Below are positions 4,134 to 53,480 of a DNA stretch of 64,000 bases, piece after piece (position 1 is the stretch's first letter; each line of letters begins with the position of its first letter). A program made the position numbers and the translations under genes. Source of the stretch: a virus; IMG/VR virus record IMGVR_UViG_3300045988_183505, positions 63,428-127,427 of that record; one strand, 5' to 3'. Under the pieces are notes generated by a model. It saw only the letters and a program-made list of their open reading frames with translations, did not search any database and had not been told where the DNA came from.

Positions 4134-5261
4134 TTATATCGCATCTAACACATTGACCGCTTCTTCATACTGGTCGTTTGTCAAATGAATATAGATATTG
4201 TAAGTGGTTGTGACACTGGAGTGACCCAGCAATTTTGAAACCACTTTTATATCAATCTTCTTTGCCAGTAGCAAACTGCCAAATGTATGTCTTAATTCAT
4301 GTGTTGTCAGCATTGGCAAATTTCCTGCCTTGCACACCTGCTGCAAATGATACCGGATTATCTCTCGCTCAGGAAGATTTCCATTGCTTTGTACAAAAAC
4401 ATACTCCGAACTTTTTACTTTTCGGAAGTAAGCAATCAATTCCCTTGCCTGCCTGTCAAGCGGTATCTTACGAATACTACATTCTGTTTTTGGTGTTTTC
4501 AGAACAAAATCGCTGCCGATTGTATTAAACTTATCATCATATTCGTTTATACGGATTCTGTTGTGATTGATAAATATTGCGTCATTTCTTACATCGCACC
4601 ATCGAAGCCCCATCAGCTCTCCGACACGAACACCGGTATGTGCGATAAACAATAACATCAATCTCGTATTTGTAACTTCTTCATACGACTTTCCTTTCAT
4701 TATGGTGTTTGTAAATATTCGCATTTCTTCCTCGTCAAAAAAGACGTGTTCTTTCTGCTCCAAAAACATATTCTTCTTCAATGTCAATTTCGACACTGGA
4801 TTTATTGTCATTAGTTTCTCTGTAACCGCCAGCTCGAACATCTCCAGAAGAACCTGTTTTATTCTCTTTGCAGTTCCATACCGAATACTCTTTTTATACC
4901 CAAGAAAAAAGTCCATCAACATTTTTGTCGTAATGCACGTCACTGGTTTGTTGACAAAATCGTACTCAGAACCTTTTAATGTTGTGATATAACTTACATA
5001 AGTATCATACGTTGCAAGTCCTGTCGTATCTCTTGTTTTGGTCAAAAAATGCTTGTAATATTCCAGCACTGTTGTTCTTGTCAGCAGCCGGATTCCATTT
5101 TCTTCTCGATATGTCTGATATGCTTTGAAGCGTTCCAAACAAATCGCTTTTGTTTTTCCGGTAAACGATTTTCTCCCCTCTGGGAATGTATACCGATATG
5201 TATACAATTTCTTTGTACTAGAAAAATTCCATGACCCCTCTCCGTTTGCTCTTTTACCCAT
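4134..5261 (-). CDS. tyrosine recombinase / phage integrase
   Basis: Carries the canonical C-terminal box HELRHTFGS...LLGHSSVTTTYNIYIHL and TGVRVGEL. The ORF track starts at 5306, but the ATG at 5261 (MGKRANGEGS) follows GGAG and leaves the upstream repeats non-coding. Confidence 0.9.
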   Translation of the reverse strand: MGKRANGEGSWNFSSTKKLYTYRYTFPEGRKSFTGKTKAICLERFKAYQTYREENGIRLLTRTTVLEYYKHFLTKTRDTTGLATYDTYVSYITTLKGSEYDFVNKPVTCITTKMLMDFFLGYKKSIRYGTAKRIKQVLLEMFELAVTEKLMTINPVSKLTLKKNMFLEQKEHVFFDEEEMRIFTNTIMKGKSYEEVTNTRLMLLFIAHTGVRVGELMGLRWCDVRNDAIFINHNRIRINEYDDKFNTIGSDFVLKTPKTECSIRKIPLDRQARELIAYFRKVKSSEYVFVQSNGNLPEREIIRYHLQQVCKAGNLPMLTTHELRHTFGSLLLAKKIDIKVVSKLLGHSSVTTTYNIYIHLTNDQYEEAVNVLDAI

Positions 5262-28074: not shown

Positions 28075-28174
28075 TCTCCTTATCTTTTAGCCTGTCAGCG
28101 GACTTGTGACCGCTTGTCAGTCGCATTACTTGCAACCGACATTCGTGTCGGTCGCAATCACTCTGCGTTGCAGG

Positions 28175-35475: not shown

Positions 35476-38400
35476 TCACTTCGTCACAGGCAAGGTGTCG
35501 ATGTAACGAACCAAGAACTGCAACAGTGCGGTTGCATCATTGGAATCAATCTTATCATCAGAGAAAGTGTTTGCATTGATTGCAGCCTGTCCCTTCAAAG
35601 TGATAGTGCCGATTACTGCCTTATTGAGCATAACTGCATCTGTAAGATTTACCTTTCCGTCCAAGTTCAAATCGCCATACAGCGTATTCTTCGGAACATC
35701 AGTGCCTGTTGCCGTGGTTGTTGTGCCAGAGCCTGCTCCGCTGTTGTCTGTGGAAGATGCCGTGGTGGTATCTGAACCGTTTCCAGAACCGCTTGTACCT
35801 GTTGTACCAGTGCCAGAACCATTGCCTGTTCCAGCGGTGGTCACACTGCCACTTGTGGTAGTTGCACTGCCATTGCCAGAGGATTGGTCTGTACCTGTTC
35901 CTGTAGCTGTGCTGTCGCTGTCCACAGTGGACGAAGTAACGTCAGTCGTAGAAACAGTCGTCTCTGTTCCAGAGCCGCTTACAGAGGATTCTGAACCGCC
36001 TGTGGCTGTTGTCACGGTGGTGGTTGTCTGCTTCGGAGAAGCATTGATTACCAGCGTACCAGTTACCTTGTCATAGTTATCATCATCGGGAGTATATTCC
36101 CATGTCAGAGTATTGTCGCCTTCGGTCAGCTTCTTTACCTCATCGACTACCCATGAAACAGAACCGCTCGGTGTGTCCTTACCCAGAATCAGGTCAGGCA
36201 GGTCATCTCCAGCTTCGTAGTCCTTGTCCGGAACACTTACTTCAACATTCGGGACTGCCTTTTTCACACGGAATGTCACATTCAGCTCCAGCTGAGAGCC
36301 ATTTCCGGCGGTGATTGTGATTCTTGCCTTTGTCTGTCCCACTTCTGTCGGCGTACCGGAGAGAACACCATCTTCCAATGTGATTCCCTTCGGCAGACCA
36401 GAGCCGGTTTTTGTAGTGCTTGTTGCGACCGGAACTTCCGGAGCAGGCTGATTTTCGGACAGTTCAATAGATTTGATACCGCCCACTTTACCAGCATTGC
36501 CGATATAGCTTCTCAAATCAATATCTTCCATCGGCACATTGTAGGTCAGGTCTACTGCTGCCACACCAGACTTTCCGTTTGCCCATTCCATCATCGGAGT
36601 ATCGCCGTTGTCCATATCGTCAATGTCAACATCTCTGTAGTCGCTGGTAAAAGAACCGATTGTAACATCTGTGACATCGTAGTCGTCATTACCGCCGTCC
36701 AGCTCAACCAGTGCGGTAACAGTATAATCACCTACCGGCAGCAGGACATCATAGTTTCCGTCCTTTACAGCATAGCAAGTGCCGCCGTCCGCATAAGCAT
36801 CAGCCGGAGAAGCATATTTGCTGTCGTAAAAGTATAAGATACCTCGGTTGTCGCCTTGGTCTTCTTTGAACGGCTTATATGCGTTCAGGTCTGTAAAGCT
36901 TTTCAGACGTACCCGAACAAGGTCTGTACCATCTGCCAGCTCATAAGTGCAGTCCGGAAGGAACAGCAGCTTGTCACTTCCACCTTCGGTTGTGACATCT
37001 ACGACCGGAGCATCTTTGCAATCACGCTTTTCTTCTGAAAGAACCTCGTAGTTGCCATCGCCGTCCAGATAATCCGTAGACACTTCACGAATATCCTGCA
37101 AGCCAGAATAAGACAGCAGCTTGTAGTCAGCATCGTGTGTAACAAACGCCATCTTACCGCCGACAAATTCAACAAAATAGTCGTTGCTTTCGCCATCGAA
37201 CATTTTCTTCGCTGTATCAGCTCCATATGTTCCGGTAGCATCAACTGTCAGGTCTCCAGAATCGACATTGCTGATAATCGGATATTTGTAGTCTTCCTTT
37301 GCAGTGTACAGTTCCTGCAAGCCGGTGATATAATCGCCGTTTCCCTTTGCCTTAGAAGAATCCATTTCAGAAGCAGGTGTACGGCTTGCCAGTTTATCTG
37401 TGATTGCATAGAAATTGTCAACCACATCAATCTTACCGGTATCATCACTTACCAGCTTGTCAATATCTGTAGACCGAATGATGTTGCCGTACTCTGTCTG
37501 ATTATCCGTAACAGGATTTGTCAGTCCCAGCTCACGATAATAATTATCGTAGCCAAATAAAGATACGATGTCATAAATCATTCCGGATTCATGCTGCGTA
37601 CTCGGATTCAGCTTGCTGTCAATGATACTGGACATAACAGCACCAGCAATCAAATATCCAGAGGAATCAAAAATCTGCGGCGAATGGTTCGCCGAGTAAA
37701 CCTCGCCTTCGGTTTCACCATCCATATATTCCGACTTCATCGTAAAATCCGCATTGTAATAAGTCCCCTTCGGGAGAGCGATTGCATAACCACCCTTTAC
37801 CGTATACGATGTTCCGGTAGTCGGCAAAATCTGTGTAAGTGTCATATCCTTCATCTTCGGAGAAGCATATGCCAGATTGAAGTCGTTTTCTGTCACACTT
37901 GTAACATTGCCGTTGCTGTCCGCAACATACTTGTAAAAGGTTCTGTCCCCGATTGCATGGGGCATACCCGACAGGTCAAACATATCCAGCAAAAGGCTTT
38001 TGCCGTTGATAACCGTTACAGGCTTGCCCTTATACATCTTGATGCGACAATTGGTACTCGTAGTGAAATACCCAGTCAGCTCTCTGCCTTCTTCTCCGGT
38101 AATCGCATAGAACTCATTGGTTGCAGTGCTGTCCGTGATTCCGGAAACATCGACCGGAATAATGCAGGAAGTATCAACTGTTGTCACCTGCGGTGAGTAA
38201 TTGCCGTTCTGCTTTACGATTCTTATGCTAATCAAGGGGCTGCCAACTGCTGTGCCGCCATGTGGTTCAGCATAAACCACACTGTAGCCTGCGTTGTACA
38301 TCTCGCCGAGAACCGAATTGCAGATAAGACGATTTGTAACTACCGCCTTGTACTTCTTGAAGTCTCCAGTCGTGACGAGAGAAAAGCCGATGCTCTTGGT

Positions 38401-38664
38401 GTTACCGGCTACATTCGTATCACTGTAGGAATACTTCTCCAGATTGTTGGCAAACGCCGTGTTGGGCAGTACCAGATTGATTTCCGTATCACTGAACGTA
38501 TACACGGTTTCGCTCAGCTTCTGTGTCTGCTTCTGCGAAATGTTTGTGCCTGTCACTGCACTGTTTACTGCACTCGCTGAAAGACTAGCAGTTCCAGTTG
38601 CCATACAAGCCACGGCGGTCAGTAAAGCCACATATGACTTTACCTTTCTGTGATTTGTCTTCAT
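35476..38664 (-). CDS. large secreted protein with an Ig-like repeat, a Thr/Ser/Gly linker and a C-terminal type-I dockerin
   Basis: Signal peptide after the ATG at 38664. He_PIG-like GITLEDGVLSGTPTEVG. Long TS/G-rich linker. C-terminus GDLNLDGKVNLTDAVMLNKAV ... DDKIDSNDATALLQFLV gives two dockerin Ca-binding repeats. Confidence 0.85.
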   Translation of the reverse strand: MKTNHRKVKSYVALLTAVACMATGTASLSASAVNSAVTGTNISQKQTQKLSETVYTFSDTEINLVLPNTAFANNLEKYSYSDTNVAGNTKSIGFSLVTTGDFKKYKAVVTNRLICNSVLGEMYNAGYSVVYAEPHGGTAVGSPLISIRIVKQNGNYSPQVTTVDTSCIIPVDVSGITDSTATNEFYAITGEEGRELTGYFTTSTNCRIKMYKGKPVTVINGKSLLLDMFDLSGMPHAIGDRTFYKYVADSNGNVTSVTENDFNLAYASPKMKDMTLTQILPTTGTSYTVKGGYAIALPKGTYYNADFTMKSEYMDGETEGEVYSANHSPQIFDSSGYLIAGAVMSSIIDSKLNPSTQHESGMIYDIVSLFGYDNYYRELGLTNPVTDNQTEYGNIIRSTDIDKLVSDDTGKIDVVDNFYAITDKLASRTPASEMDSSKAKGNGDYITGLQELYTAKEDYKYPIISNVDSGDLTVDATGTYGADTAKKMFDGESNDYFVEFVGGKMAFVTHDADYKLLSYSGLQDIREVSTDYLDGDGNYEVLSEEKRDCKDAPVVDVTTEGGSDKLLFLPDCTYELADGTDLVRVRLKSFTDLNAYKPFKEDQGDNRGILYFYDSKYASPADAYADGGTCYAVKDGNYDVLLPVGDYTVTALVELDGGNDDYDVTDVTIGSFTSDYRDVDIDDMDNGDTPMMEWANGKSGVAAVDLTYNVPMEDIDLRSYIGNAGKVGGIKSIELSENQPAPEVPVATSTTKTGSGLPKGITLEDGVLSGTPTEVGQTKARITITAGNGSQLELNVTFRVKKAVPNVEVSVPDKDYEAGDDLPDLILGKDTPSGSVSWVVDEVKKLTEGDNTLTWEYTPDDDNYDKVTGTLVINASPKQTTTTVTTATGGSESSVSGSGTETTVSTTDVTSSTVDSDSTATGTGTDQSSGNGSATTTSGSVTTAGTGNGSGTGTTGTSGSGNGSDTTTASSTDNSGAGSGTTTTATGTDVPKNTLYGDLNLDGKVNLTDAVMLNKAVIGTITLKGQAAINANTFSDDKIDSNDATALLQFLVRYIDTLPVTK

Positions 38665-38721
38665 TGGACATAATCTCCTTTGCAAAAAAGATTTTAGGCT
38701 TTATTCAGCCATTATTTGATT

Positions 38722-39192: not shown

Positions 39193-41307
39193 TTATTCTG
39201 TCACCGGCAAAGAAGTGATTGTGTGAACCAAGAACCGCAGCAATGTTGTTGCATCGTTGCCATCAAGATTACCGTCTGCATAGCACTCCGCATTATCCTT
39301 TGCCTGCTCATTCAACACAACAGAGCCTGCGATTGACTTGTTCAGCAGAACAGCATCAGAGATGTCCACTCTGCCGTCCAGCGTAACATCGCCCAGCAGA
39401 ATTGTACCACTGCTGCCCTGTGTGGTTACTGTAGTGGTGGTTGTGGAAGAACCCTGTCCTGTGGTGCTGGTGGTCGTTGTGCCACCGTCCAGAGCAACGA
39501 ACGGAATGTTGTTCGCAGTAGCATATGCTTCTACAGTAGAACCTGTATAACCATACAGTGTCAGGTTATCGCAACTACCAAATGCTTTGTTCTCAATCAT
39601 AATATCTGTTCTGGTAATCTTAGCTTCTCGCAATCCGGTATTCACAAATGCGTATTTTCCAATGAATGTAACATTAGAAAAATCAAAAGATTCCAGCTGT
39701 CGGCAGCTGGAAAACTGACCGCCGTTCAATCTGAGTTCTCCGTCTCCATAGGTCTTTACAGTTGTGAGATTGTACATACTTGTAAATTCTATATTTGCAG
39801 AACAGTTTACGCCCTTTTTCCCAAGCTCGAACGGTCGTTCTGTGTTGTTCATGTACAGCTCCAATGTTGAAGAAATTTTATTTCCATCTTCATCAGAAGT
39901 TGCTGTCATAATATCATCAAAAGCACCTTCATACCATTGGCTATCGTCATATACACCCAGCTTCAAGGATTCCAGTTCGGCACAATTCTTGAAAGCTTCG
40001 TTGTCAAAAAGGTGTGCAGAAGTTAAGTCCAAGCTTTTCAATTTATAGCAATTCACGAAAGCTTCTCTGCCGAAGCCAAGAGCGTTGCCAACATTGACCT
40101 TCGTCAGGTTTTCACAATAAGAGAAGTTTCCGTCACTATAATACAGCTCACCATTTCCGACTACTTCAAAAGTGTTCAGCAATCTATCTTCACGTTCAAA
40201 GTCATCAGGGAGAACATAAGCGTCCTCATTGTTGGTGTAAATCGTCATCGAATACGGCTTGACGTTTCCTTCACTTTTTTGTCTTCGTCCAAACGCATAT
40301 TCTCCTATTTCCAGCTTATCGTTCAGGGCAATTTGAATATCGTTTGCACTTGTGCAGCCAAGAAAAGCAGCATCGCCAATGTACCGCAGATTTTTGTTCT
40401 TCAACTGAATCTCTGACAGCTGTGTACAGCCTTCAAACGCATCATCAGCAACAACAACAACATGAGAGAAGTCAAAATTTCTCAGCATAGTGTTGTTCCG
40501 AAACGCCATGTTTCCGATGCCGACTTCTCCGTCACCTTCAAAGCGTACTTCACGGATTCTGTTGCTGTCATAAAATCCACTTGAAATTGTCATCATGTTG
40601 CTTTTATTCATGTTGAGTTGGAAGGTCAAAACGAATGCCGTTCCAGCAAACGAATCCCCTTCGCCAAAAATATGCTGACCTATGCCGTTAAGCTGTGCTG
40701 CTTCACAGTTTTTATCAGTAATACTGATTGTGACATCTTCCAGAGAAGAACAGCCACTGAACGCTTCGCTGCCAACACACCCCAGTTTCGTATTTGTCAG
40801 ATTTACAGTCGTCAGCTTTTCACAGCCCATAAATGCGTAATCTAACATATCTACGATTTTCTCAAAAGCCACAGTTTTCAAGCGAGAACAGCCGTGAAAT
40901 GCGTCCTTGTAGAGTACCATTTCTTCATTTTCAAAGTCTACGGACTTCAAATTAGTGCAGTTCGCAAATGCGGCTTCGCCAATAAATTTCACATCTTCTG
41001 CCAGCGTCAGACTGACGTTTTCCAGTTCACGGAATGCTTCTGTAGTGCCAGTCACAGTATAATTACCGTCACCATTATCTTCAAACGTAAAGTAATCTGT
41101 CTGACTGGTATCACACTGTACCTCTATAGGAACATTTGTAGTGGCTTCTACAAGCACAGGTGCTGTATCAGATACAGTAGTGTCACCGTCTGTTACAACA
41201 ACATCACTTGCAGTAAGGTCTACCGCCCACGCAGTCATCGGCAACGCCTGTACACACATGACACCAGCCAACAGTAAACCTGCTGCCGTTCGTTTCAACT
41301 TCTTCAT
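39193..41307 (-). CDS. BspA-type leucine-rich-repeat surface protein with a C-terminal type-I dockerin
   Basis: Signal peptide. Many repeats of the form IGxxAFxxCxxLxxV. Thr-rich linker. C-terminus GDVTLDGRVDISDAVLLNKSI ... ADGNLDGNDATTLLRFLV. The ATG at 41307 lies 9 nt after AAAGGA. Confidence 0.85.
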   Translation of the reverse strand: MKKLKRTAAGLLLAGVMCVQALPMTAWAVDLTASDVVVTDGDTTVSDTAPVLVEATTNVPIEVQCDTSQTDYFTFEDNGDGNYTVTGTTEAFRELENVSLTLAEDVKFIGEAAFANCTNLKSVDFENEEMVLYKDAFHGCSRLKTVAFEKIVDMLDYAFMGCEKLTTVNLTNTKLGCVGSEAFSGCSSLEDVTISITDKNCEAAQLNGIGQHIFGEGDSFAGTAFVLTFQLNMNKSNMMTISSGFYDSNRIREVRFEGDGEVGIGNMAFRNNTMLRNFDFSHVVVVADDAFEGCTQLSEIQLKNKNLRYIGDAAFLGCTSANDIQIALNDKLEIGEYAFGRRQKSEGNVKPYSMTIYTNNEDAYVLPDDFEREDRLLNTFEVVGNGELYYSDGNFSYCENLTKVNVGNALGFGREAFVNCYKLKSLDLTSAHLFDNEAFKNCAELESLKLGVYDDSQWYEGAFDDIMTATSDEDGNKISSTLELYMNNTERPFELGKKGVNCSANIEFTSMYNLTTVKTYGDGELRLNGGQFSSCRQLESFDFSNVTFIGKYAFVNTGLREAKITRTDIMIENKAFGSCDNLTLYGYTGSTVEAYATANNIPFVALDGGTTTTSTTGQGSSTTTTTVTTQGSSGTILLGDVTLDGRVDISDAVLLNKSIAGSVVLNEQAKDNAECYADGNLDGNDATTLLRFLVHTITSLPVTE

Positions 41308-41347
41308 GTCATCTTGTCCTTTCAAAGTATCTATCTAATTTGTTTTT

Positions 41348-47126: not shown

Positions 47127-47157
47127 AAAAATCAGCCTATACCGCAGTACAGACTGA
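47127..47157 (-). terminator. Rho-independent terminator ending the 50.3-47.2 kb operon
   Basis: Same stem family as 39127-39160 (tcagcctata...tacagactga), followed by U5 on the minus strand. Confidence 0.6.
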
Positions 47158-47178
47158 CTTGTCATCGCTTTTTTCCTT

Positions 47179-47373
47179 TCACTTCTTACCTTTGATGTGC
47201 TGTGACATCACTTGTGGAGCAAGCTTTTGAATATGGTCAAGTATCACTTTAGATTCACAAAGTTGCACAAGCCCTTTCATAAAGCTTTGAAAATCAAAAA
47301 GTGCAATATCATTCAGATGTTCCTGTAACAATTTCAAAAACTTATCTGAACAATGTTCTCCAAAAAAGCACAT
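47179..47373 (-). CDS. hypothetical protein
   Basis: 64-aa ORF in the array. Confidence 0.45.
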   Translation of the reverse strand: MCFFGEHCSDKFLKLLQEHLNDIALFDFQSFMKGLVQLCESKVILDHIQKLAPQVMSQHIKGKK

Positions 47374-47378
47374 AACAC

Positions 47379-47747
47379 TTATGAAATTTTGAATATGAAA
47401 GCCATTGGTGTCAGCAAAATATGCAGTTCGATATTTTGCAAATCATACGCCGAAATTTGCAAATTATACGCACATATTTCAATCCATTCTTTTTCATTCA
47501 TTACCACAGCATCAATCGTAGCTTTCATGAGCAAGTCAGGAATCAATTCGTGGCACATATCAGACGCTTTACAAGAACTTTCGTGTATCGCAAATTCAGC
47601 GATTTTTGTTTTCTTTTTATCTCCGCAAAAAGAAATGTAAACATTGCTCCACGGAAGTCCCATTTCGTCATATCCGTTTTTCAAAAATGTTCCAGTTATT
47701 GCATCGCTGCGATAAATCGCATTCTCTGCGATGATTTTCCGTATCAT
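47379..47747 (-). CDS. hypothetical protein
   Basis: 122 aa, 4-nt overlap with the upstream gene. Confidence 0.55.
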   Translation of the reverse strand: MIRKIIAENAIYRSDAITGTFLKNGYDEMGLPWSNVYISFCGDKKKTKIAEFAIHESSCKASDMCHELIPDLLMKATIDAVVMNEKEWIEICAYNLQISAYDLQNIELHILLTPMAFIFKIS

Positions 47748-47938
47748 TCTGTTTCCTTTCTTCGCTCATAAAGCTCTGCCTTATACACGATTTCCTCAGC
47801 CGTGTAATGGTCAAATACGGAGTGAATATCTCCTTCCTCTCCACTGTCGAATGCGTCAGCAAATCTGTCGTCAAAGCAGCCGTCTTTCAGCCACTGCACC
47901 AGTTCTGTACTGGTCATTGGAGTTTTCTTCAATTTCAT
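47744..47938 (-). CDS. hypothetical protein
   Basis: 64 aa, acidic. Confidence 0.5.
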   Translation of the reverse strand: MKLKKTPMTSTELVQWLKDGCFDDRFADAFDSGEEGDIHSVFDHYTAEEIVYKAELYERRKETE

Positions 47939-47956
47939 ACCTCTTTTTGATTTTGT

Positions 47957-48466
47957 TTAATCGCCATATTCAAACGAACTTTTCTTCGGCTTTTTTGCCT
48001 TAGATTGTTTCTGCGAAGCTTTTGAGAAAGCAGTAGACTTCTGAGCCTCTTGCATCAGATTCTTCTGTTGCTGCTGGCTCTGACCTTGCTGGGATTGATT
48101 CTGCTGTGGAAGTCCTTGTTCTTCAGCTCTCGCAGCTCTTGCAGCAGCATCAAAAGTCTCGATTTTCTTCATCATGTCATACTGCTCTCCGATATTCGTG
48201 ACATCAAACTTTTCCACACACTGAGCAAACCACGGGAAGGTTCTTGTCATATTTTGGACTAAGTAATCAACCTGTGCCTTGCTAAGCGGTTCTTTGGAAA
48301 CATATCCAGACCATTGCCTATGTAAAAAGCCTTTTGATTTCATAAAGTCTTTGATTTCTCCATAGGCTTTTAAGTATTCCAGAGGTCTATTGGTAACACA
48401 ATAAGCATCTTTCAGCTTCTTTGTGTCCAAATCAAAGTTAATCGCTTTTCTCATTTGTTTAGCCAT
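47957..48466 (-). CDS. VapD-like (Cas2-fold) endoribonuclease with a Gln-rich tail
   Basis: KAINFDLDTKKLKDAY...AYGEIKDFMKSKGFLHRQWSGYVS...WF...V..FDVT is colinear with H. pylori VapD (YALAFDL...AYDDLRQELELLGFEWTQGSVYV...WF..SV.DIRAF). Confidence 0.7.
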   Translation of the reverse strand: MAKQMRKAINFDLDTKKLKDAYCVTNRPLEYLKAYGEIKDFMKSKGFLHRQWSGYVSKEPLSKAQVDYLVQNMTRTFPWFAQCVEKFDVTNIGEQYDMMKKIETFDAAARAARAEEQGLPQQNQSQQGQSQQQQKNLMQEAQKSTAFSKASQKQSKAKKPKKSSFEYGD

Positions 48467-48468
48467 GA

Positions 48469-48798
48469 TTAGTCACCATATTTGTTCTTGAAATCTTCAA
48501 TTTCCTTGAAAATATCTTCTGTACTGTCATCACTTGCATCGTACCATTCCATTTTATTGAGGTACTTCCCAAGCCAGCTTTCACGTAGAACGCCGGTTGC
48601 AATTCCAACTTCACTGAAAGAATCCTTCCCTTTGCCGATAGTGAAGACAAGATTTCCGTTTTCCGATTCCTGTTCCTTGAAATTGCATCTGGCAAAAGTA
48701 TTTCTCACAGTTTTGTACACTGCATTCAAATCGTGCTGTCGCATACTCAGCACCTTATCGTCATCAATTCCTATTGTAATTTTGTACAAGTAATCCAT
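48469..48798 (-). CDS. hypothetical protein immediately upstream of the VapD-like gene
   Basis: 109 aa with a 2-nt gap to the VapD-like gene. Confidence 0.55.
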   Translation of the reverse strand: MDYLYKITIGIDDDKVLSMRQHDLNAVYKTVRNTFARCNFKEQESENGNLVFTIGKGKDSFSEVGIATGVLRESWLGKYLNKMEWYDASDDSTEDIFKEIEDFKNKYGD

Positions 48799-48818
48799 AG
48801 TTTTTCCTACCTTTCGTA

Positions 48819-49313
48819 TTAGTTTTCTTTTGGAGAGCTTGCATTGAACTCTGCAACTTGCAGGAGTTTTTTTGCAATCTCATAGTTCTGTTCCCAGACA
48901 CTTTTTTGAACCGGCTGCACGTCCATAATGTTCAATAGAGCCAGAAGTTTCTTCCAAAGGTCTGCCTCTGCAACAGGTCTGCCTTGCTCAGTTTCCCAGT
49001 TGTTTTGCTGCCATTGCTGATACCGTTCCTGAATCAGCACGTCTCTGACATATCCACAGTTGATGTACAAGGAAACTTTTGAACCGGATTCAACCGCTTC
49101 GGAAAGTGTACGGTTCAGAGCTGCCAATGTTGCTGTCCGCAGCATTTCTGCCTGATTGCCGTCACTCTTGCCAAATGTAAGCGATGTCATCATTCCAGTA
49201 CAGCCGCTTGCTCTATCAAGTAGATATACGGTGGAGCAAGCTTTTGAAGACGCACAATTCCATACAGATTCCACATAGATGTCATAGTGTCTTTGGTTCA
49301 CGTTGCTACACAC
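48819..49313 (-). CDS. RNase H-fold protein with substituted catalytic residues (copy 1)
   Basis: LYINCGYVRDVLIQERYQQWQQNNWETEQGRPVAEADLWKKLLALL aligns with E. coli RNase HI [46 protein letters not shown]. By this alignment D10 becomes E, E48 is kept, D70 becomes N and D134 becomes E. Confidence 0.7.
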   Translation of the reverse strand: MCSNVNQRHYDIYVESVWNCASSKACSTVYLLDRASGCTGMMTSLTFGKSDGNQAEMLRTATLAALNRTLSEAVESGSKVSLYINCGYVRDVLIQERYQQWQQNNWETEQGRPVAEADLWKKLLALLNIMDVQPVQKSVWEQNYEIAKKLLQVAEFNASSPKEN

Positions 49314-49459
49314 TCCTTTTCCAGCCCCAGCTCTGGAGCAGGTTTCTTTGCCATAATCTCATCACAGGAGCGTTCTCGCCGATATTTCTTATCCAGCTCT
49401 GCCAGCTTTGCAGCTAACTGCTCCTTGGTATAGTTCATGAGATACTGTTCTTTTGACAT
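49298..49459 (-). CDS. conserved micro-ORF (53 aa), copy 1
   Basis: MSKEQYLMNYTKEQLAAKLAELDKKYRR... after the GGAG RBS. The N-terminus matches copy 2 (MTKEEYFMNYTKEQLAEML). Overlaps the RNase H-like gene. Confidence 0.6.
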   Translation of the reverse strand: MSKEQYLMNYTKEQLAAKLAELDKKYRRERSCDEIMAKKPAPELGLEKECVAT

Positions 49460-49556
49460 TTTCTTTTTTCTCCTATCTCAGGCTTCGCTTAGGGTACGGA
49501 ACAACTTTTTGTGTTAATATAATCGCTATAAATTCTTGTTCCATACCCTGTTCCGA

Positions 49557-49683
49557 TGGTGTCCGATGCAGGATTTGCACCTGCGTAGCACATCAAAAGC
49601 AATTGAAAGAACTGCACATGATTCAATCTACGAGAGAAAGAGGTTGCTTTGGACAATGCTGTTTTCACCTAAACTACTCGGAC
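49557..49683 (-). ncRNA. tRNA-shaped RNA 1 (127 nt) with a 60-nt insertion in the anticodon loop position
   Basis: Reading the minus strand: acceptor GTCCGAG/ATCGGAC, U8-A9, D arm GTTT-AGGTGA-AAAC. Anticodon stem GCATT/GATGT closes 60 nt. Variable region GCTAC, T arm GCAGG-TGCAAAT-CCTGC, discriminator A, then CCA. Confidence 0.55.
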
Positions 49684-49751
49684 ATTGTGAGGGAAAGCTA
49701 AATCAATGAAGAAAAAGCCTTCCCTCAGAAGATATATTGGAGTGAAAATGG

Positions 49752-49876
49752 TGGTGTCTGAGACAGGGATTGCACCTGCATTCTGTATCGTCTATCACTA
49801 CACAACTTCTCTCTTACGTTGCGTTTTGCGAACAGCTTTTGCTCCAGTTACAGTGTTTTACTTAAACTACTCAGAC
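49752..49876 (-). ncRNA. tRNA-shaped RNA 2 (125 nt) with a 61-nt insertion in the anticodon loop position
   Basis: Perfect acceptor GTCTGAG/CTCAGAC, U8-A9, D arm GTTT-AAGTA-AAAC. Stem CTGTA/TACAG closes 61 nt. T arm GCAGG-TGCAATC-CCTGT, then A-CCA(CCA). Confidence 0.55.
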
Positions 49877-50054
49877 GCAAGACGGAGAAATGGAAAAACT
49901 CCGTCCTGTAAGATATATAAAAGGAGATGTTAATGGTATAACAGGCTCAAATGGGATAAAACCCTGCTATACCGAAAGGAAGCCGAATCACAGGAGCGAC
50001 CTGCTTTTCGGCGTTTGACAGGCTATCACCGCCACGCCATGAGTTTCACATATA
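49877..50054 (-). ncRNA. structured leader RNA upstream of the tRNA-like pair
   Basis: Three minus-strand hairpins: GCCGAA..CAGG-tcgct-CCTG..TTCGGC; GGTATAGCAGG/CCTGTTATACC (11 bp, one G.U, so minus-strand specific); GACGGAG/CTCCGTC just before the tRNA-like RNA. Confidence 0.35.
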
Positions 50055-50228
50055 TTACGTCTCGTTCAGTTTCAACCGTCTTCTGATTACTCCAACCACA
50101 GACGAATTGTCCTTTTCAGCCAGCTTTTTAAGCTTTTCATATTCGGAATTTGTTAAAACCAACGACACACGTTTTCTGGAAGCAATATACTTCTTCTGGG
50201 CTTTCTTCGCCGCTGCCGTCTTCGACAC
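50055..50228 (-). CDS. small ribbon-helix-helix (CopG/Arc-like) protein
   Basis: GTG start after AGGGAAG. 57 aa: ...KKYIASRKRVSLVLTNSEYEKLKKLAEKDNSSVVGVIRRRL. Below the ORF-track cutoff. Confidence 0.5.
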   Translation of the reverse strand: MSKTAAAKKAQKKYIASRKRVSLVLTNSEYEKLKKLAEKDNSSVVGVIRRRLKLNET

Positions 50229-50280
50229 TGGTACTTCCCTGCCTTTCTAAAGTCCATAGTTCACATAAACGGATAATCTA

Positions 50281-50309
50281 ATTATACACTATCTGCTGTT
50301 TGCTGTCAC
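50281..50309 (-). promoter_or_regulatory. promoter of the RHH / tRNA-like / RNase H-like / VapD operon
   Basis: Minus strand reads GTGACA-GCAAACAGCAGATAGTG-TATAAT with a 17-nt spacer. Confidence 0.55.
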
Positions 50310-52868: not shown

Positions 52869-53480
52869 TCATACCGCCGGTTCTGCTTCCAGAACGGGAG
52901 CATTTTCCATAATCCACCTTGCGAAGCCATCAGCTCCACCTACCGCATCATATTCCGCTTTTGTCAATTTGACATTCACAGTAATCATTACCGGTACTTC
53001 ATCACGCACAACAGGCTGTTTTTCAGATTGGTTATCTGCCGCCTTCAAACCTTTTTCCATTCCTTGTTTTGCAAGAGCATCTGCTTTTTCATTAAGTCTG
53101 TCACTGGAGTGAGCCTTGACTTTAACAAACTGAATCGGCAGATATTGTCTTGCCTTCGCCACTCTGTCCCGATAATCCTGTGTTGCCACCTTTTTTGCTT
53201 TCCATTCGCCATCAGCCCACTTCTGTAATCCTTCATAGTCATGGTATACAGTTACAGAATCTACATCACGACTGCTCTGATTGATTTTGAACAGCAGCCG
53301 GAGAGCTTCCAGTACGCCATAGATTTCTCCGGCAACATTACGGATTCCGTCAGCATCTTCGCCGTAAAAAGAAAGTTCCTGAACCGGATTAAATCCGAAG
53401 GGAGTTTCTTGCAGAATAACTGCACCAGCTCCCCAGATGCCGTTCTTATACGAACCATCAGAATAAATTGCGTATTTCAT
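52869..53480 (-). CDS. ribonuclease HI (catalytic residues intact) with a C-terminal extension
   Basis: IYSDGS (D), AGEIYGVLEAL (E), VYHDYEG (D), VKAHSS...NEKADALAK (H, D). This is the full DEDD-type set. Confidence 0.8.
   Translation of the reverse strand: MKYAIYSDGSYKNGIWGAGAVILQETPFGFNPVQELSFYGEDADGIRNVAGEIYGVLEALRLLFKINQSSRDVDSVTVYHDYEGLQKWADGEWKAKKVATQDYRDRVAKARQYLPIQFVKVKAHSSDRLNEKADALAKQGMEKGLKAADNQSEKQPVVRDEVPVMITVNVKLTKAEYDAVGGADGFARWIMENAPVLEAEPAV

What the first reader, a model, noticed from the sequence alone, without database searches (positions are those of the whole stretch)
47127..50309. RNA-centred operon: RHH, structured leader, two tRNA-shaped RNAs, micro-ORF, pseudo-RNase H, 109-aa protein, VapD-like RNase
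Seen in sequence:
- One promoter (50281-50309) and one terminator (47127-47157) bracket a gap-free unit.
- In order it holds a small RHH protein, ~180 nt of hairpins, two tandem tRNA-shaped RNAs, a conserved 53-aa micro-ORF, an RNase H-fold protein with substituted catalytic residues, a 109-aa protein, a VapD/Cas2-fold RNase and three small ORFs.

Non-decoding tRNA mimics placed beside two RNA-nuclease folds and a DNA-binding RHH do not match any named phage module I know. The core (tRNA-like RNA, micro-ORF, RNase H-like protein) recurs at 62.0-62.8 kb.

Inference, three alternatives:
- a counter-defence cassette, with tRNA decoys against host anticodon nucleases or tRNA-targeting toxins
- a toxin-antitoxin-like RNA-protein system
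- an RNA-processing device
Basis: partly seen in the sequence, partly recalled or inferred. Interest (0 to 1): 0.85.

Follow-up and report, generated by a model that had tools for sequence, protein, structure and literature searches.

The report
Prophage tRNA-mimic RNAs with dead RNase H
A common human-gut prophage of Coprococcus eutactus carries, in two copies, an undescribed cassette that encodes folded non-coding RNAs shaped like tRNAs that cannot decode, followed by a tiny protein and an RNase H that has lost its catalytic residues; the neighbouring "109-aa + VapD" genes are a separate, known VapW-VapD toxin-antitoxin pair.

Summary
A strong promoter (50309-50281) and a terminator (47160-47129) bracket, on the minus strand: an RHH gene, a roughly 180-nt structured leader, two tRNA-shaped RNAs, a 53-aa micro-ORF, a catalytically dead RNase HI homologue, a 109-aa gene, VapD and tail ORFs.

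The core recurs at 64.0-62.0 kb and also includes a second RHH gene. Both copies are conserved in related gut prophages, where the non-coding parts diverge less than the flanking genes.

Corrections:
- The 109-aa protein models as VapW, so 109-aa + VapD is a VapWD type II toxin-antitoxin pair. It is absent from the sister lineage, so it is an inserted cassette, not part of the RNA device.
- The last two "small ORFs" are one frameshifted 189-aa gene.
- Relatives have a second perfect promoter between the RHH gene and the leader. One lineage also has a terminator between the RNA array and the micro-ORF.

The tRNA-like units keep covarying acceptor, D and T stems and an encoded CCA end, but lack a usable anticodon loop. 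They are nearest to phage tRNA-Arg genes.

Function is unproven. My best guess is that host tRNA-processing enzymes release tRNA mimics, with the dead RNase H and micro-protein as partner. Nothing in Rfam, Pfam, PADLOC or the searched literature describes this module.

The parts
50281..50309 (-). sigma-70-type promoter (GTGACA-17-TATAAT) in front of RHH1
   Evidence: 11/12. A similar GTGACA-17-TATAAT element precedes the RHH2 gene in L176.
50055..50228 (-). RHH1, a 57-aa probable ribbon-helix-helix regulator
   Evidence: Pfam RHH_7 22.3 bits, below cut-off. PHROG Arc-like repressor E 4e-5. 45% identical to RHH2 of the second copy and 60% to the L001-type orthologue.
49982..50051 (-). leader 5' domain: three conserved hairpins H1-H3. 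H2 has a T-loop-like 7-nt loop, UGAnAGC.
   Evidence: The signature pattern occurs only twice in the window, with 0 expected by chance.
49877..49981 (-). leader 3' part: a long hairpin plus a hairpin that abuts the 5' end of unit A
   Evidence: fold (z = -6.2 for the whole leader); alignment
49752..49876 (-). tRNA-like unit A: acceptor, D and T arms and an ACCA end, with the anticodon arm replaced by a branched insert of about 70 nt
   Evidence: CM R1 49.6 bits, E 1e-9. Fold. Orthologue in L001 at 2489-2607, with Rfam tRNA 32.8 bits.
49689..49726 (-). inter-unit hairpin that immediately precedes unit B
   Evidence: read from the sequence. An equivalent hairpin is present in L001.
49557..49683 (-). 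tRNA-like unit B: cloverleaf with a long extended anticodon arm and an ACCA end
   Evidence: Rfam tRNA 29.4 bits against a gathering score of 29. MFE cloverleaf. R1 41.1 bits.
49298..49459 (-). micro-ORF 1 (53 aa), with a Shine-Dalgarno sequence. Its stop overlaps the GTG start of the next gene (GTGA).
48819..49301 (-). dead RNase HI homologue 1 (160 aa)
48469..48798 (-). VapW-like antitoxin candidate (109 aa)
   Evidence: AF2 pLDDT 92.8. The Foldseek top hit is 9kan_B, C. jejuni VapW, with TM 0.71. No sequence-level similarity to VapD.
47957..48466 (-). VapD toxin (169 aa, with a Q-rich tail)
47744..47938 (-). 64-aa ORF of unknown function, conserved in the L001 lineage
47179..47747 (-). 189-aa gene of unknown function, split by a frameshift in this window into 122-aa and 64-aa ORFs
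47129..47160 (-). intrinsic-terminator-like hairpin plus T-run
   Evidence: The same element is present in L001 at 4774-4813.
63981..64000 (-). 3' end of RHH2, the paralogue of RHH1. The gene runs off the window.
63862..63890 (-). perfect sigma-70 promoter (TTGACA-17-TGnTATAAT) of the second copy
   Evidence: 12/12. The L001 lineage has an equivalent promoter between the RHH gene and the leader.
63812..63843 (-). attenuator-like hairpin plus T-run just downstream of that promoter
63026..63748 (-). ERF-family single-strand annealing protein, lying between the promoter and the leader in copy 2
   Evidence: Pfam ERF E 2e-33. The same order is kept in L170.
62792..63024 (-). leader of copy 2: 5' domain at about 63003-62920, then hairpins
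62711..62790 (-). tRNA-like unit C: an 80-nt cloverleaf with a 6-bp anticodon-like stem, a 10-nt loop and an ACCA end
   Evidence: MFE cloverleaf, z = -3.0. R1 80.5 bits.
62588..62690 (-). micro-ORF 2 (34 aa), overlapping the start of the next gene
62000..62599 (-). dead RNase HI homologue 2 (199 aa, 37% identical to copy 1)

Best explanation
This is an accessory module of a Coprococcus eutactus prophage, present in two diverged copies.

Shown:
- Each copy has the order RHH regulator gene, strong sigma-70 promoter, non-coding transcript, micro-protein gene, nuclease-dead RNase HI gene.
- The non-coding transcript has a conserved three-hairpin leader and one to three tRNA-derived cloverleaf RNAs.
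- The cloverleafs keep acceptor, D and T arms and an encoded (A/G)CCA end. The anticodon arm is replaced, so they cannot decode.
- The micro-protein and dead RNase HI genes are translationally coupled.

Inferred mechanism:
- The host tRNA-maturation machinery (RNase P at the 5' side, trimming to the CCA at the 3' side) excises the units.
- This yields stable tRNA mimics and also sets free the downstream micro-ORF/dead-RNase-H mRNA.
- The mimics act in trans as ligands or decoys for a factor that reads the acceptor/T-arm/CCA part of tRNA rather than the anticodon.
- The dead RNase H, with its micro-protein, binds nucleic acid without cutting and is the RNA's protein partner or regulator.

The VapW-VapD pair downstream of copy 1 is a separate type II toxin-antitoxin cassette, inserted in this lineage only.
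For: RNA is under selection:
- In the six-sequence core alignment, the 16 pairs of the acceptor, D and T stems are 97.9% paired. Eight pairs change on both sides. With the partners slid by 1-3 columns, pairing is at most 53%.
- All seven distinct units end in CCA. L170 changed only the discriminator base, A to G.
- Between copy 2 and L170, the leader 5' domain is 88% identical and the tRNA-like unit 81.5%, against 65% for the flanking ERF and dead RNase H genes.

tRNA ancestry and tRNA-like substrate features:
- A covariance model built from the units scores genuine phage tRNA-Arg genes best among real tRNAs, at 48 and 37.6 bits.
- The T-loop variant UG[C/A]AA is also found in bona fide phage tRNAs.
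- The base 5' of the acceptor is U in 5 of 7 units (sequences).

Not decoding:
- ARAGORN finds no tRNA in the window or in the relatives tested (L001, L002); L170 was not scanned.
- The anticodon-like arms have 6-, 10- or 11-nt loops, or inserts of 60-75 nt.

Linkage:
- The order leader, tRNA-like RNA, micro-ORF, dead RNase H is kept in four versions.
- The RHH gene is duplicated with the module.

RNA as a product in its own right:
- The L001 lineage has a 12/12 promoter directly upstream of the leader and a terminator-like hairpin between the last unit and the micro-ORF.
- One natural variant, L180, has deleted the dead RNase H but keeps the promoter, leader and three units.

Dead RNase H: full RNase HI fold with the DEDD residues replaced. 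The phage also encodes an intact RNase H elsewhere.

VapWD as a separate cassette; PMC11980593.
Against: - There is no expression, processing or binding data. Every functional step is inferred.
- The family is tiny. HMMER against 1.84 billion representatives, IMG/VR and a metagenome scan found only three prophage lineages. Covariation therefore rests on six or seven sequences that are partly paralogues.
- Distant dead-RNase-H relatives have no tRNA-like RNA or micro-ORF, so the protein does not generally need such an RNA.
- Nothing identifies the supposed target of a decoy, and there are no PADLOC hits.
- The window's copies have no terminator between the RNA and the ORFs, which fits a purely cis-acting 5' UTR equally well.
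Confidence: 0.4

Rival explanations
1. The RNA is a purely cis-acting 5' UTR. The tRNA-like units are processing ('punctuation') signals, and the leader is an operator. Together they set the 5' end, stability and translation of the micro-ORF/dead-RNase-H mRNA, perhaps with feedback binding by the encoded proteins. The excised RNAs would have no function of their own.
For: - In both window copies the RNA runs straight into the Shine-Dalgarno sequence of the micro-ORF, with no terminator.
- The linkage and order are strict.
- The leader 5' domain is the most conserved element, as operators often are.
- Co-transcription of tRNAs with mRNAs is established biology (own knowledge: the E. coli tufB operon).
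Against: - One to three units with different, lineage-conserved arms is more than processing needs.
- The D arm and CCA end are kept, although a minihelix would suffice.
- L001 has a terminator between the array and the ORFs.
- L180 keeps the array after losing the protein.
Confidence: 0.25
2. This is a type III-like (RNA antitoxin) or composite toxin-antitoxin system. The structured RNA array, the micro-protein, or both neutralise the RNase H-fold protein, which would be toxic through binding or through a non-canonical activity. The RHH protein would autoregulate the system.
For: - The L001 layout of promoter, tandem structured RNA units, terminator and protein gene mirrors the ToxIN layout (the ToxIN layout is own knowledge).
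- A small upstream ORF overlaps the start of the larger gene, as in type II pairs.
- RHH domains are typical of antitoxins and TA regulators.
- The only natural deletion seen removes the protein and keeps the RNA.
Against: - The protein has lost the RNase H catalytic residues.
- It matches no ToxN/AbiQ/CptN-type or other toxin or defence family.
- The units are not identical repeats.
- Having two copies in one prophage, inside the replication/recombination region, is unusual for a TA.
Confidence: 0.12
3. The module acts in replication priming or R-loop control. The structured transcript with a free CCA-3'OH end forms or primes at an RNA:DNA hybrid. The dead RNase H binds that hybrid and shields it from the active phage or host RNase H.
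For: - Copy 2 sits between the ERF gene and a PIF1-type helicase, in the replication/recombination module.
- Distant dead-RNase-H relatives directly follow rolling-circle Rep genes.
- The phage also has an active RNase H.
- Catalytically dead RNase H binds hybrids specifically (PMC8266564).
Against: - There is no GC-skew switch at either copy.
- No site elsewhere in the window is complementary to the 3' ends of the units.
- The basic residues of the RNase HI handle region are partly lost (alignments).
- This explains neither the tRNA shape nor the micro-ORF.
Confidence: 0.1
4. The units are decaying tRNA pseudogenes, left over from a phage tRNA cluster and without function.
For: They resemble phage tRNA-Arg genes and have lost the anticodon loop.
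Against: - The stems covary rather than decay.
- They diverge less than the neighbouring protein genes.
- The CCA end is retained in all units.
- They are kept in two paralogous modules and three lineages.
Confidence: 0.05

Closest known systems
Phage-encoded tRNA genes, especially tRNA-Arg of gut phages (IMG/VR loci L122 and L106)
   Same: Acceptor, D and T arms; an encoded ACCA end; a G1-U2...A71-C72 acceptor stem; the T-loop variant GGUGCAAnUCC. These are the best-scoring real tRNAs with the model of the units.
   Different: There is no 5-bp stem with a 7-nt anticodon loop. Instead there are 6-, 10- or 11-nt loops, or extensions of 60-75 nt. ARAGORN rejects them. Each unit is preceded by a hairpin, and the units are tied to a leader, a micro-ORF and a dead RNase H.
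Viral tRNA-like RNAs used as processing handles or stable RNAs: murid herpesvirus 4 vtRNA/TMER arrays, and phage T4 stable RNAs C and D (own knowledge; vtRNAs also appear in the abstract list, PMC2888160)
   Same: These are virus-encoded, non-decoding tRNA-shaped units that alternate with hairpins in tandem. They are presumably matured by host tRNA enzymes, and their function is largely unknown.
   Different: Different hosts and transcription systems. No sequence relation was tested. None of them is linked to an RNase H-fold protein or a micro-ORF.
VapW-VapD type II toxin-antitoxin systems (Gilep et al. 2025, PMC11980593; PDB 9KAN)
   Same: The VapD here matches C. jejuni VapD (E 2.9e-23) and the NCBIfam VapD model. 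The upstream 109-aa protein models with VapW as its best structural match. The gene order is antitoxin then toxin, with a 2-nt gap.
   Different: The 109-aa family shows no detectable sequence similarity to VapD or VapW. Its 66%-identical relatives are stand-alone chromosomal genes. Toxicity and neutralisation are untested.
RNase HI (Pfam PF00075)
   Same: The whole fold is shared, with TM 0.70-0.75 over about 157 residues. The helix and handle segment YV..W...W..GW...G.....LW is conserved.
   Different: The catalytic D10/E48/D70/D134 and H124 are replaced or lost. A small specific family carries the motifs IYVE..WN and LYI(N/S)CGYVR.
Type III toxin-antitoxin loci (ToxIN type; own knowledge)
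   Same: The layout matches in the L001 lineage: promoter, tandem structured RNA units, terminator, protein gene.
   Different: The protein is not a ToxN/AbiQ-type endoribonuclease. The units are tRNA-like and not identical. There is also an RHH gene and a micro-ORF.
Bacterial Y RNA (YrlA) with Rsr/Ro60 (own knowledge; mentioned in PMC7824862)
   Same: A non-coding RNA with a tRNA-like module is encoded next to a protein partner.
   Different: There is no TROVE/Ro protein here and no Rfam YrlA match. In these units the 5' and 3' ends form the acceptor stem itself.

Membership tests
canonical (decoding) tRNA | Cloverleaf with acceptor, D and T stems | tested here: met
   The 16 pairs are 97.9% paired, and 8 of them show changes on both sides. 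MFE cloverleafs.
canonical (decoding) tRNA | 5-bp anticodon stem with a 7-nt loop carrying an anticodon; recognised by tRNA finders | tested here: not met
   ARAGORN finds no genes in the window, L001 or L002. The loops are 6, 10 or 11 nt, or the arm carries a 60-75-nt insert. Rfam tRNA reaches its gathering score only for unit B (29.4 against 29) and for L001 unit 1 (32.8).
canonical (decoding) tRNA | 3' CCA end | tested here: met
   All units end in ACCA. The L170 unit ends in GCCA.
tmRNA | tRNA-like domain plus an internal tag reading frame, detected by ARAGORN | tested here: not met
   ARAGORN finds none. The micro-ORF has its own Shine-Dalgarno sequence and ATG, and lies outside the tRNA-like fold.
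active RNase HI | RNase H fold | tested here: met
   Pfam RNase_H 30 bits. Foldseek TM 0.70-0.75 to E. coli RNase HI.
active RNase HI | DEDD catalytic carboxylates, plus H124 | tested here: not met
   E at D10; E, I or V at E48; N, S or R at D70; no H124 or D134 equivalents. The third paralogue, at 53480-52869, keeps all of them.
VapD toxin | Match to the curated VapD model and to solved VapD structures | tested here: met
   NCBIfam NF041506 scores 116.4 bits, above its cut-off of 100. 9kan_A E 2.9e-23, with the NFDL and SGY motifs aligned.
VapW antitoxin (VapWD) | VapD-like fold, encoded immediately upstream of vapD | tested here: met
   The Foldseek top hit is 9kan_B (VapW), with TM 0.71 over 107 of 111 columns. 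There is a 2-nt gap to vapD.
VapW antitoxin (VapWD) | Loss of the catalytic Asp and/or Ser of VapD; detectable homology to VapD | tested here: inconclusive
   A by-eye alignment puts G and T at those positions. BLASTP and hhalign find no significant similarity.
VapW antitoxin (VapWD) | Binds and neutralises the cognate VapD | not testable with these tools
   Needs co-expression and pull-down experiments, as in PMC11980593.
type III toxin-antitoxin | Toxin of a ToxN/AbiQ/CptN/TenpN endoribonuclease family that processes its own RNA repeats | tested here: not met
   There are no Pfam, PHROG or PADLOC matches of that kind. The protein has an RNase HI fold.
type III toxin-antitoxin | Tandem RNA repeats, then a terminator, then the toxin gene | tested here: inconclusive
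   A terminator-like hairpin is present in the L001 lineage only. It is absent in both window copies. The units are dissimilar, not repeats.
RHH (CopG/Arc) regulator | Match to RHH family models | tested here: inconclusive
   RHH_7 scores 22.3 bits against a cut-off of 27. PHROG Arc-like repressor E 4e-5. RHH2 gives NikA-like 21.4 bits against a cut-off of 27.
any Rfam family for the leader (riboswitch, T-box, ROOL/GOLLD and others) | Score at or above the gathering threshold | tested here: not met
   The best leader match is AdoCbl-II at 13.4 bits, against a gathering score of 36.5.

The most novel reading that the evidence does not exclude
This could be a previously unrecognised kind of phage RNA-protein system. 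In it, tRNA-derived mimic RNAs, released by the host's own tRNA-processing enzymes, work together with a nuclease-dead RNase H and a micro-protein, under an RHH regulator. One possibility is a counter-defence decoy against tRNA-end-directed host toxins. The other is an RNA-neutralised (type III-like) toxin-antitoxin or exclusion module. Similar arrays of degenerate tRNA-like units in unrelated gut phages (for example L094) hint that non-decoding tRNA mimics may be a wider phage strategy.
Probability: 0.22. Interest if true: 0.85.

Novelty: new variant of a known kind. Interest (0 to 1): 0.62.

Why it matters
Phage tRNAs are now known to serve as counter-measures to tRNA-cleaving defences. Non-decoding tRNA mimics tied to a dedicated protein partner would be a different use of the tRNA scaffold.

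The element is very common in human gut metagenomes. The exact VapD sequence is indexed in 1,036 blocks of the collection, on contigs up to 0.8 Mb. It sits in a cultivable species, Coprococcus eutactus, so the hypotheses can be tested directly.

The work also adds:
- a phage-borne VapWD pair;
- a naturally nuclease-dead RNase HI family;
- the observation that close relatives of the VapW-like protein are stand-alone chromosomal genes.

Tried and rejected
- INPHARED phage genomes: blastn with the whole operon gave no match.
- D-arm DNA pattern scan of IMG/VR: only chance hits and ordinary tRNAs.
- T-arm/CCA pattern scan of IMG/VR: mostly chance hits and genuine phage tRNAs. It showed that the T-loop variant is not unique to these units.
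- Leader pattern scans of IMG/VR and of the metagenome collection: only the same three lineages plus five chance hits.
- tmRNA, group I intron, riboswitch, T-box, ROOL/GOLLD and Y RNA: no Rfam support. The AdoCbl-II match (13.4 bits) covers only hairpin H1 and was rejected.
- tRNA-primer idea: no complement of the unit 3' ends elsewhere in the window.
- Replication-origin idea: no GC-skew switch.
- Defence or anti-defence annotation: no meaningful PADLOC hits.
- Distant dead-RNase-H relatives (L032-L035): no tRNA-like RNA and no micro-ORF. They sit beside rolling-circle Rep genes instead.
- Sequence-level link between the 109-aa protein and VapD: none. The assignment rests on the predicted structure and on gene context.
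- Reading hairpin H1 as a T-loop: ambiguous, because a 5-bp stem with a 3-nt loop fits equally well. I claim a T-arm-like shape only for H2.

Full report
OBSERVATION. All features lie on the minus strand.
- A promoter-like site (GTGACA-17-TATAAT, 11/12) lies at 50309-50281, and a terminator-like hairpin with a T-run at 47160-47129.
- Between them the ORFs are contiguous.
- No canonical tRNA or tmRNA is called anywhere in the 64 kb.
- At Rfam gathering thresholds the window holds only a Twister-P5 ribozyme, at 28.1 kb.
- A permissive Rfam scan of the region finds one tRNA match, at 49683-49560. It scores 29.4 bits against a gathering score of 29, with acceptor, D and T arms aligned and 64 nt inserted in the anticodon arm.

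THE RNA PART. Downstream of the RHH stop codon lies a 178-nt leader that folds far better than shuffled sequence (-65.9 kcal/mol, z = -6.2). Two units of 125 and 127 nt follow, at 49876-49752 and 49683-49557. Each is preceded by a hairpin and each ends in ACCA.

A third unit of 80 nt, at 62790-62711, folds as a clean cloverleaf (z = -3.0).

Related contigs add four more distinct units:
- Three lie in tandem in the IMG/VR contigs L001 and L002.
- One lies in the ENA contig L170.

I aligned six sequences, trimming the long arms of three of them. On this alignment:
- The 16 pairs of the acceptor, D and T stems are 97.9% paired.
- Eight pairs change on both sides.
- When the 3' partners are slid by 1-3 columns, pairing falls to 53% or less.

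A covariance model built from that alignment (R1) behaves as follows:
- It recovers exactly three units in the window and three in L001, including one that was not used to build it. It also recovers the one in L170.
- It finds nothing near distant relatives of the protein.
- Among genuine tRNAs it scores phage tRNA-Arg genes best.

The T-loop variant UG[C/A]AA also occurs in bona fide phage tRNAs. The units are therefore tRNA-derived.

What replaces the anticodon arm differs from unit to unit:
- a 6-bp stem with a 10-nt loop in unit C;
- a stem with an 11-nt loop in L001 unit 3;
- a 6-nt loop in L170;
- inserts of 60-75 nt in units A and B.
None of these could present an anticodon in the normal way.

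The leader's 5' domain consists of three hairpins, found in all four versions with some compensatory changes. H2 has a 7-nt loop, UGAnAGC, which resembles the units' own T-loops. Its signature pattern occurs twice in the window, against 0 expected by chance.

THE PROTEINS.
- RHH1 (57 aa) gives sub-threshold RHH and Arc-like matches.
- The micro-ORFs (53 and 34 aa) share 18 of their first 24 residues. They have Shine-Dalgarno sequences and overlap the start of the next gene (GTGA/ATGA). They evolve mostly by synonymous change: 7 synonymous against 2 non-synonymous in 24 codons versus L170, and 13 against 8 versus L001.
- The next gene encodes an RNase HI homologue (Pfam 30 bits). AF2 gives pLDDT 85.5, and Foldseek gives TM 0.70-0.75 to E. 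coli RNase HI over the whole length.
  - The catalytic residues are replaced: D10 by E; E48 by E, I or V; D70 by N, S or R. H124 and D134 are lost.
  - The specific family is tiny. A profile search of 1.84 billion representative proteins returns only the two paralogue groups and fragments before generic RNase HI begins.
  - A third paralogue, at 53480-52869, keeps the full DEDHD set.
- The 169-aa protein is VapD (9kan_A E 2.9e-23; NCBIfam 116 bits above its cut-off of 100).
- The 109-aa protein models confidently (pLDDT 92.8). Its best structural match in the PDB is VapW, the VapD-derived antitoxin of C. jejuni (9kan_B, TM 0.71), as described by Gilep et al. 2025 (PMC11980593).
  - Sequence methods do not detect the relation.
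  - Homologues 66% identical to it are stand-alone chromosomal genes. The VapW call therefore rests on fold and position alone.
- The 122-aa and 64-aa tail ORFs are one 189-aa gene with a frameshift.

COMPARATIVE ANATOMY. The element is a prophage of Coprococcus eutactus. It carries integrases, ERF, a PIF1-type helicase, RusA, YopX and a DNA methylase. It is very common in gut metagenomes.

Three lineages carry the module: the window type, the L001 type and L170.

An RHH paralogue (45% identical) precedes copy 2, and its last 20 nt are at the window's edge.

The general layout is: RHH gene, perfect sigma-70 promoter, a short hairpin, (ERF in copy 2), leader, one to three tRNA-like units, micro-ORF, dead RNase H. 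In the window's copy 1 the internal promoter segment is missing, and the leader starts right after the RHH stop codon.

The L001 lineage differs in two ways:
- It has a terminator-like hairpin between the last unit and the micro-ORF.
- It has unrelated 121-aa and 75-aa ORFs where the window has VapW-VapD. The toxin-antitoxin pair is therefore an insertion.

Between copy 2 and L170 the nucleotide identities are:
- leader 5' domain 88%;
- tRNA-like unit 81.5%;
- micro-ORF 82%;
- ERF and dead RNase H 65% each.

One natural variant, L180, has an in-frame deletion that removes the dead RNase H but keeps the RNA array.

Distant RNase H-like proteins with similar substitutions follow rolling-circle Rep genes and have no such RNA.

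HOW IT PROBABLY WORKS.

Shown:
- a conserved, covarying, tRNA-derived but non-decoding RNA family with an encoded CCA end;
- a conserved structured leader;
- a fixed association with a translationally coupled micro-protein and a nuclease-dead RNase HI;
- duplication of the whole unit together with its RHH gene.

Inferred:
- Each unit keeps what RNase P and the 3'-end machinery recognise: the acceptor/T-arm stack, the elbow and the CCA end. U is at position -1 in 5 of 7 units. The units are therefore most likely cut out of the transcript as stable tRNA mimics.
- That cut would also liberate the downstream mRNA.
- I rank a trans-acting role highest, as a decoy or ligand for a factor that reads the tRNA body or 3' end, with the dead RNase H and micro-protein as binding partner. 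My confidence is about 0.4.
- The reasons are the own promoter and terminator in L001, the multiple units with lineage-conserved arms, and the survival of the array in L180.

Rivals:
- a purely cis-acting processing or operator leader;
- a type III-like or composite toxin-antitoxin;
- R-loop or primer control;
- decaying pseudogenes, the least likely given the covariation and conservation.

COMPARISON AND NOVELTY. The parts are members or variants of known kinds: tRNA-derived RNAs, the RNase HI fold, RHH proteins and VapWD. The combination matches no Rfam, Pfam, PHROG, NCBIfam or PADLOC family. Nothing found in the literature searches describes it.

Public annotation calls the proteins 'hypothetical' or 'ribonuclease HI'.

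I rate it a new variant of a known kind, namely viral tRNA-like RNAs, with a modest chance of being a new kind of system. Interest is tempered by the narrow distribution and the lack of any functional data.

Noticed in passing
window 28098-28167 (-): Type-P5 twister ribozyme (Rfam RF02684, 54.6 bits against a gathering score of 37.6) inside the prophage.
   Followed up: no
window 52869-53480 (-): A third RNase H homologue (203 aa) with all catalytic residues intact. The phage therefore has one active and two dead RNase H genes.
   Followed up: partly
window 35476-38685 (-) and 39193-41325 (-): Large prophage-borne proteins with C-terminal dockerin domains; one also has BspA-type leucine-rich repeats. 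They look like cell-surface 'moron' genes.
   Followed up: no
L094 13890-14265 (IMG/VR 3300036769_000172): An unrelated viral contig carries three tandem elements, each ending in a GGTGCAAnTCC T-arm plus an acceptor strand plus ACCA. ARAGORN does not call them. This may be another array of degenerate tRNA-like units.
   Followed up: partly
L083 7594-7665 (IMG/VR 3300045988_105696): A 72-nt tRNA-like RNA with a 5-nt 'anticodon' loop, preceded by a hairpin, lies between a 349-aa capsid-like ORF (not searched against any family library) and the next ORF. It scores 45 bits with the unit model, and ARAGORN is negative.
   Followed up: partly
L037-L043 (gut metagenome contigs): Homologues 66% identical to the 109-aa VapW-like protein are stand-alone genes at fixed chromosomal positions in what look like Clostridia (two cluster names: Ruminococcus sp., Ruminiclostridium sp.). 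One position is between a SpoU methylase and a patatin gene, the other after ftsH and before pfkB. No vapD lies nearby. Some carry an N-terminal extension of about 80 aa.
   Followed up: partly
L180 8264-8437 (480-kb gut contig): A natural in-frame deletion fuses micro-ORF codon 39 to the last ~18 codons of the dead RNase H. The RHH gene, promoter, leader and three tRNA-like units are intact.
   Followed up: yes
window 63812-63890 (-): A perfect sigma-70 promoter is followed within 20 nt by a hairpin and T-run, ahead of ERF. This looks like an attenuator. The L001 lineage has a similar promoter-hairpin pair ahead of its leader.
   Followed up: partly
window 47179-47747 (-): The 189-aa gene, intact in other copies of the prophage (L044), is frameshifted here.
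   Followed up: yes
L033 607-1820 and L034 2246-3438: Small elements carry a rolling-circle Rep gene (PF23343) directly followed by an RNase H-like gene with similar active-site substitutions (IYVETTWK...FTQCEH). A wider family of degenerate RNase H genes appears to be tied to replication genes of mobile elements.
   Followed up: partly
window 49460-49556 (-): The spacer between unit B and micro-ORF 1 occupies the place of the third unit in L001. It contains two mutually exclusive or pseudoknot-like pairings: CGGAACA with UGUUCCG, and GGGUA with UACCC.
   Followed up: no
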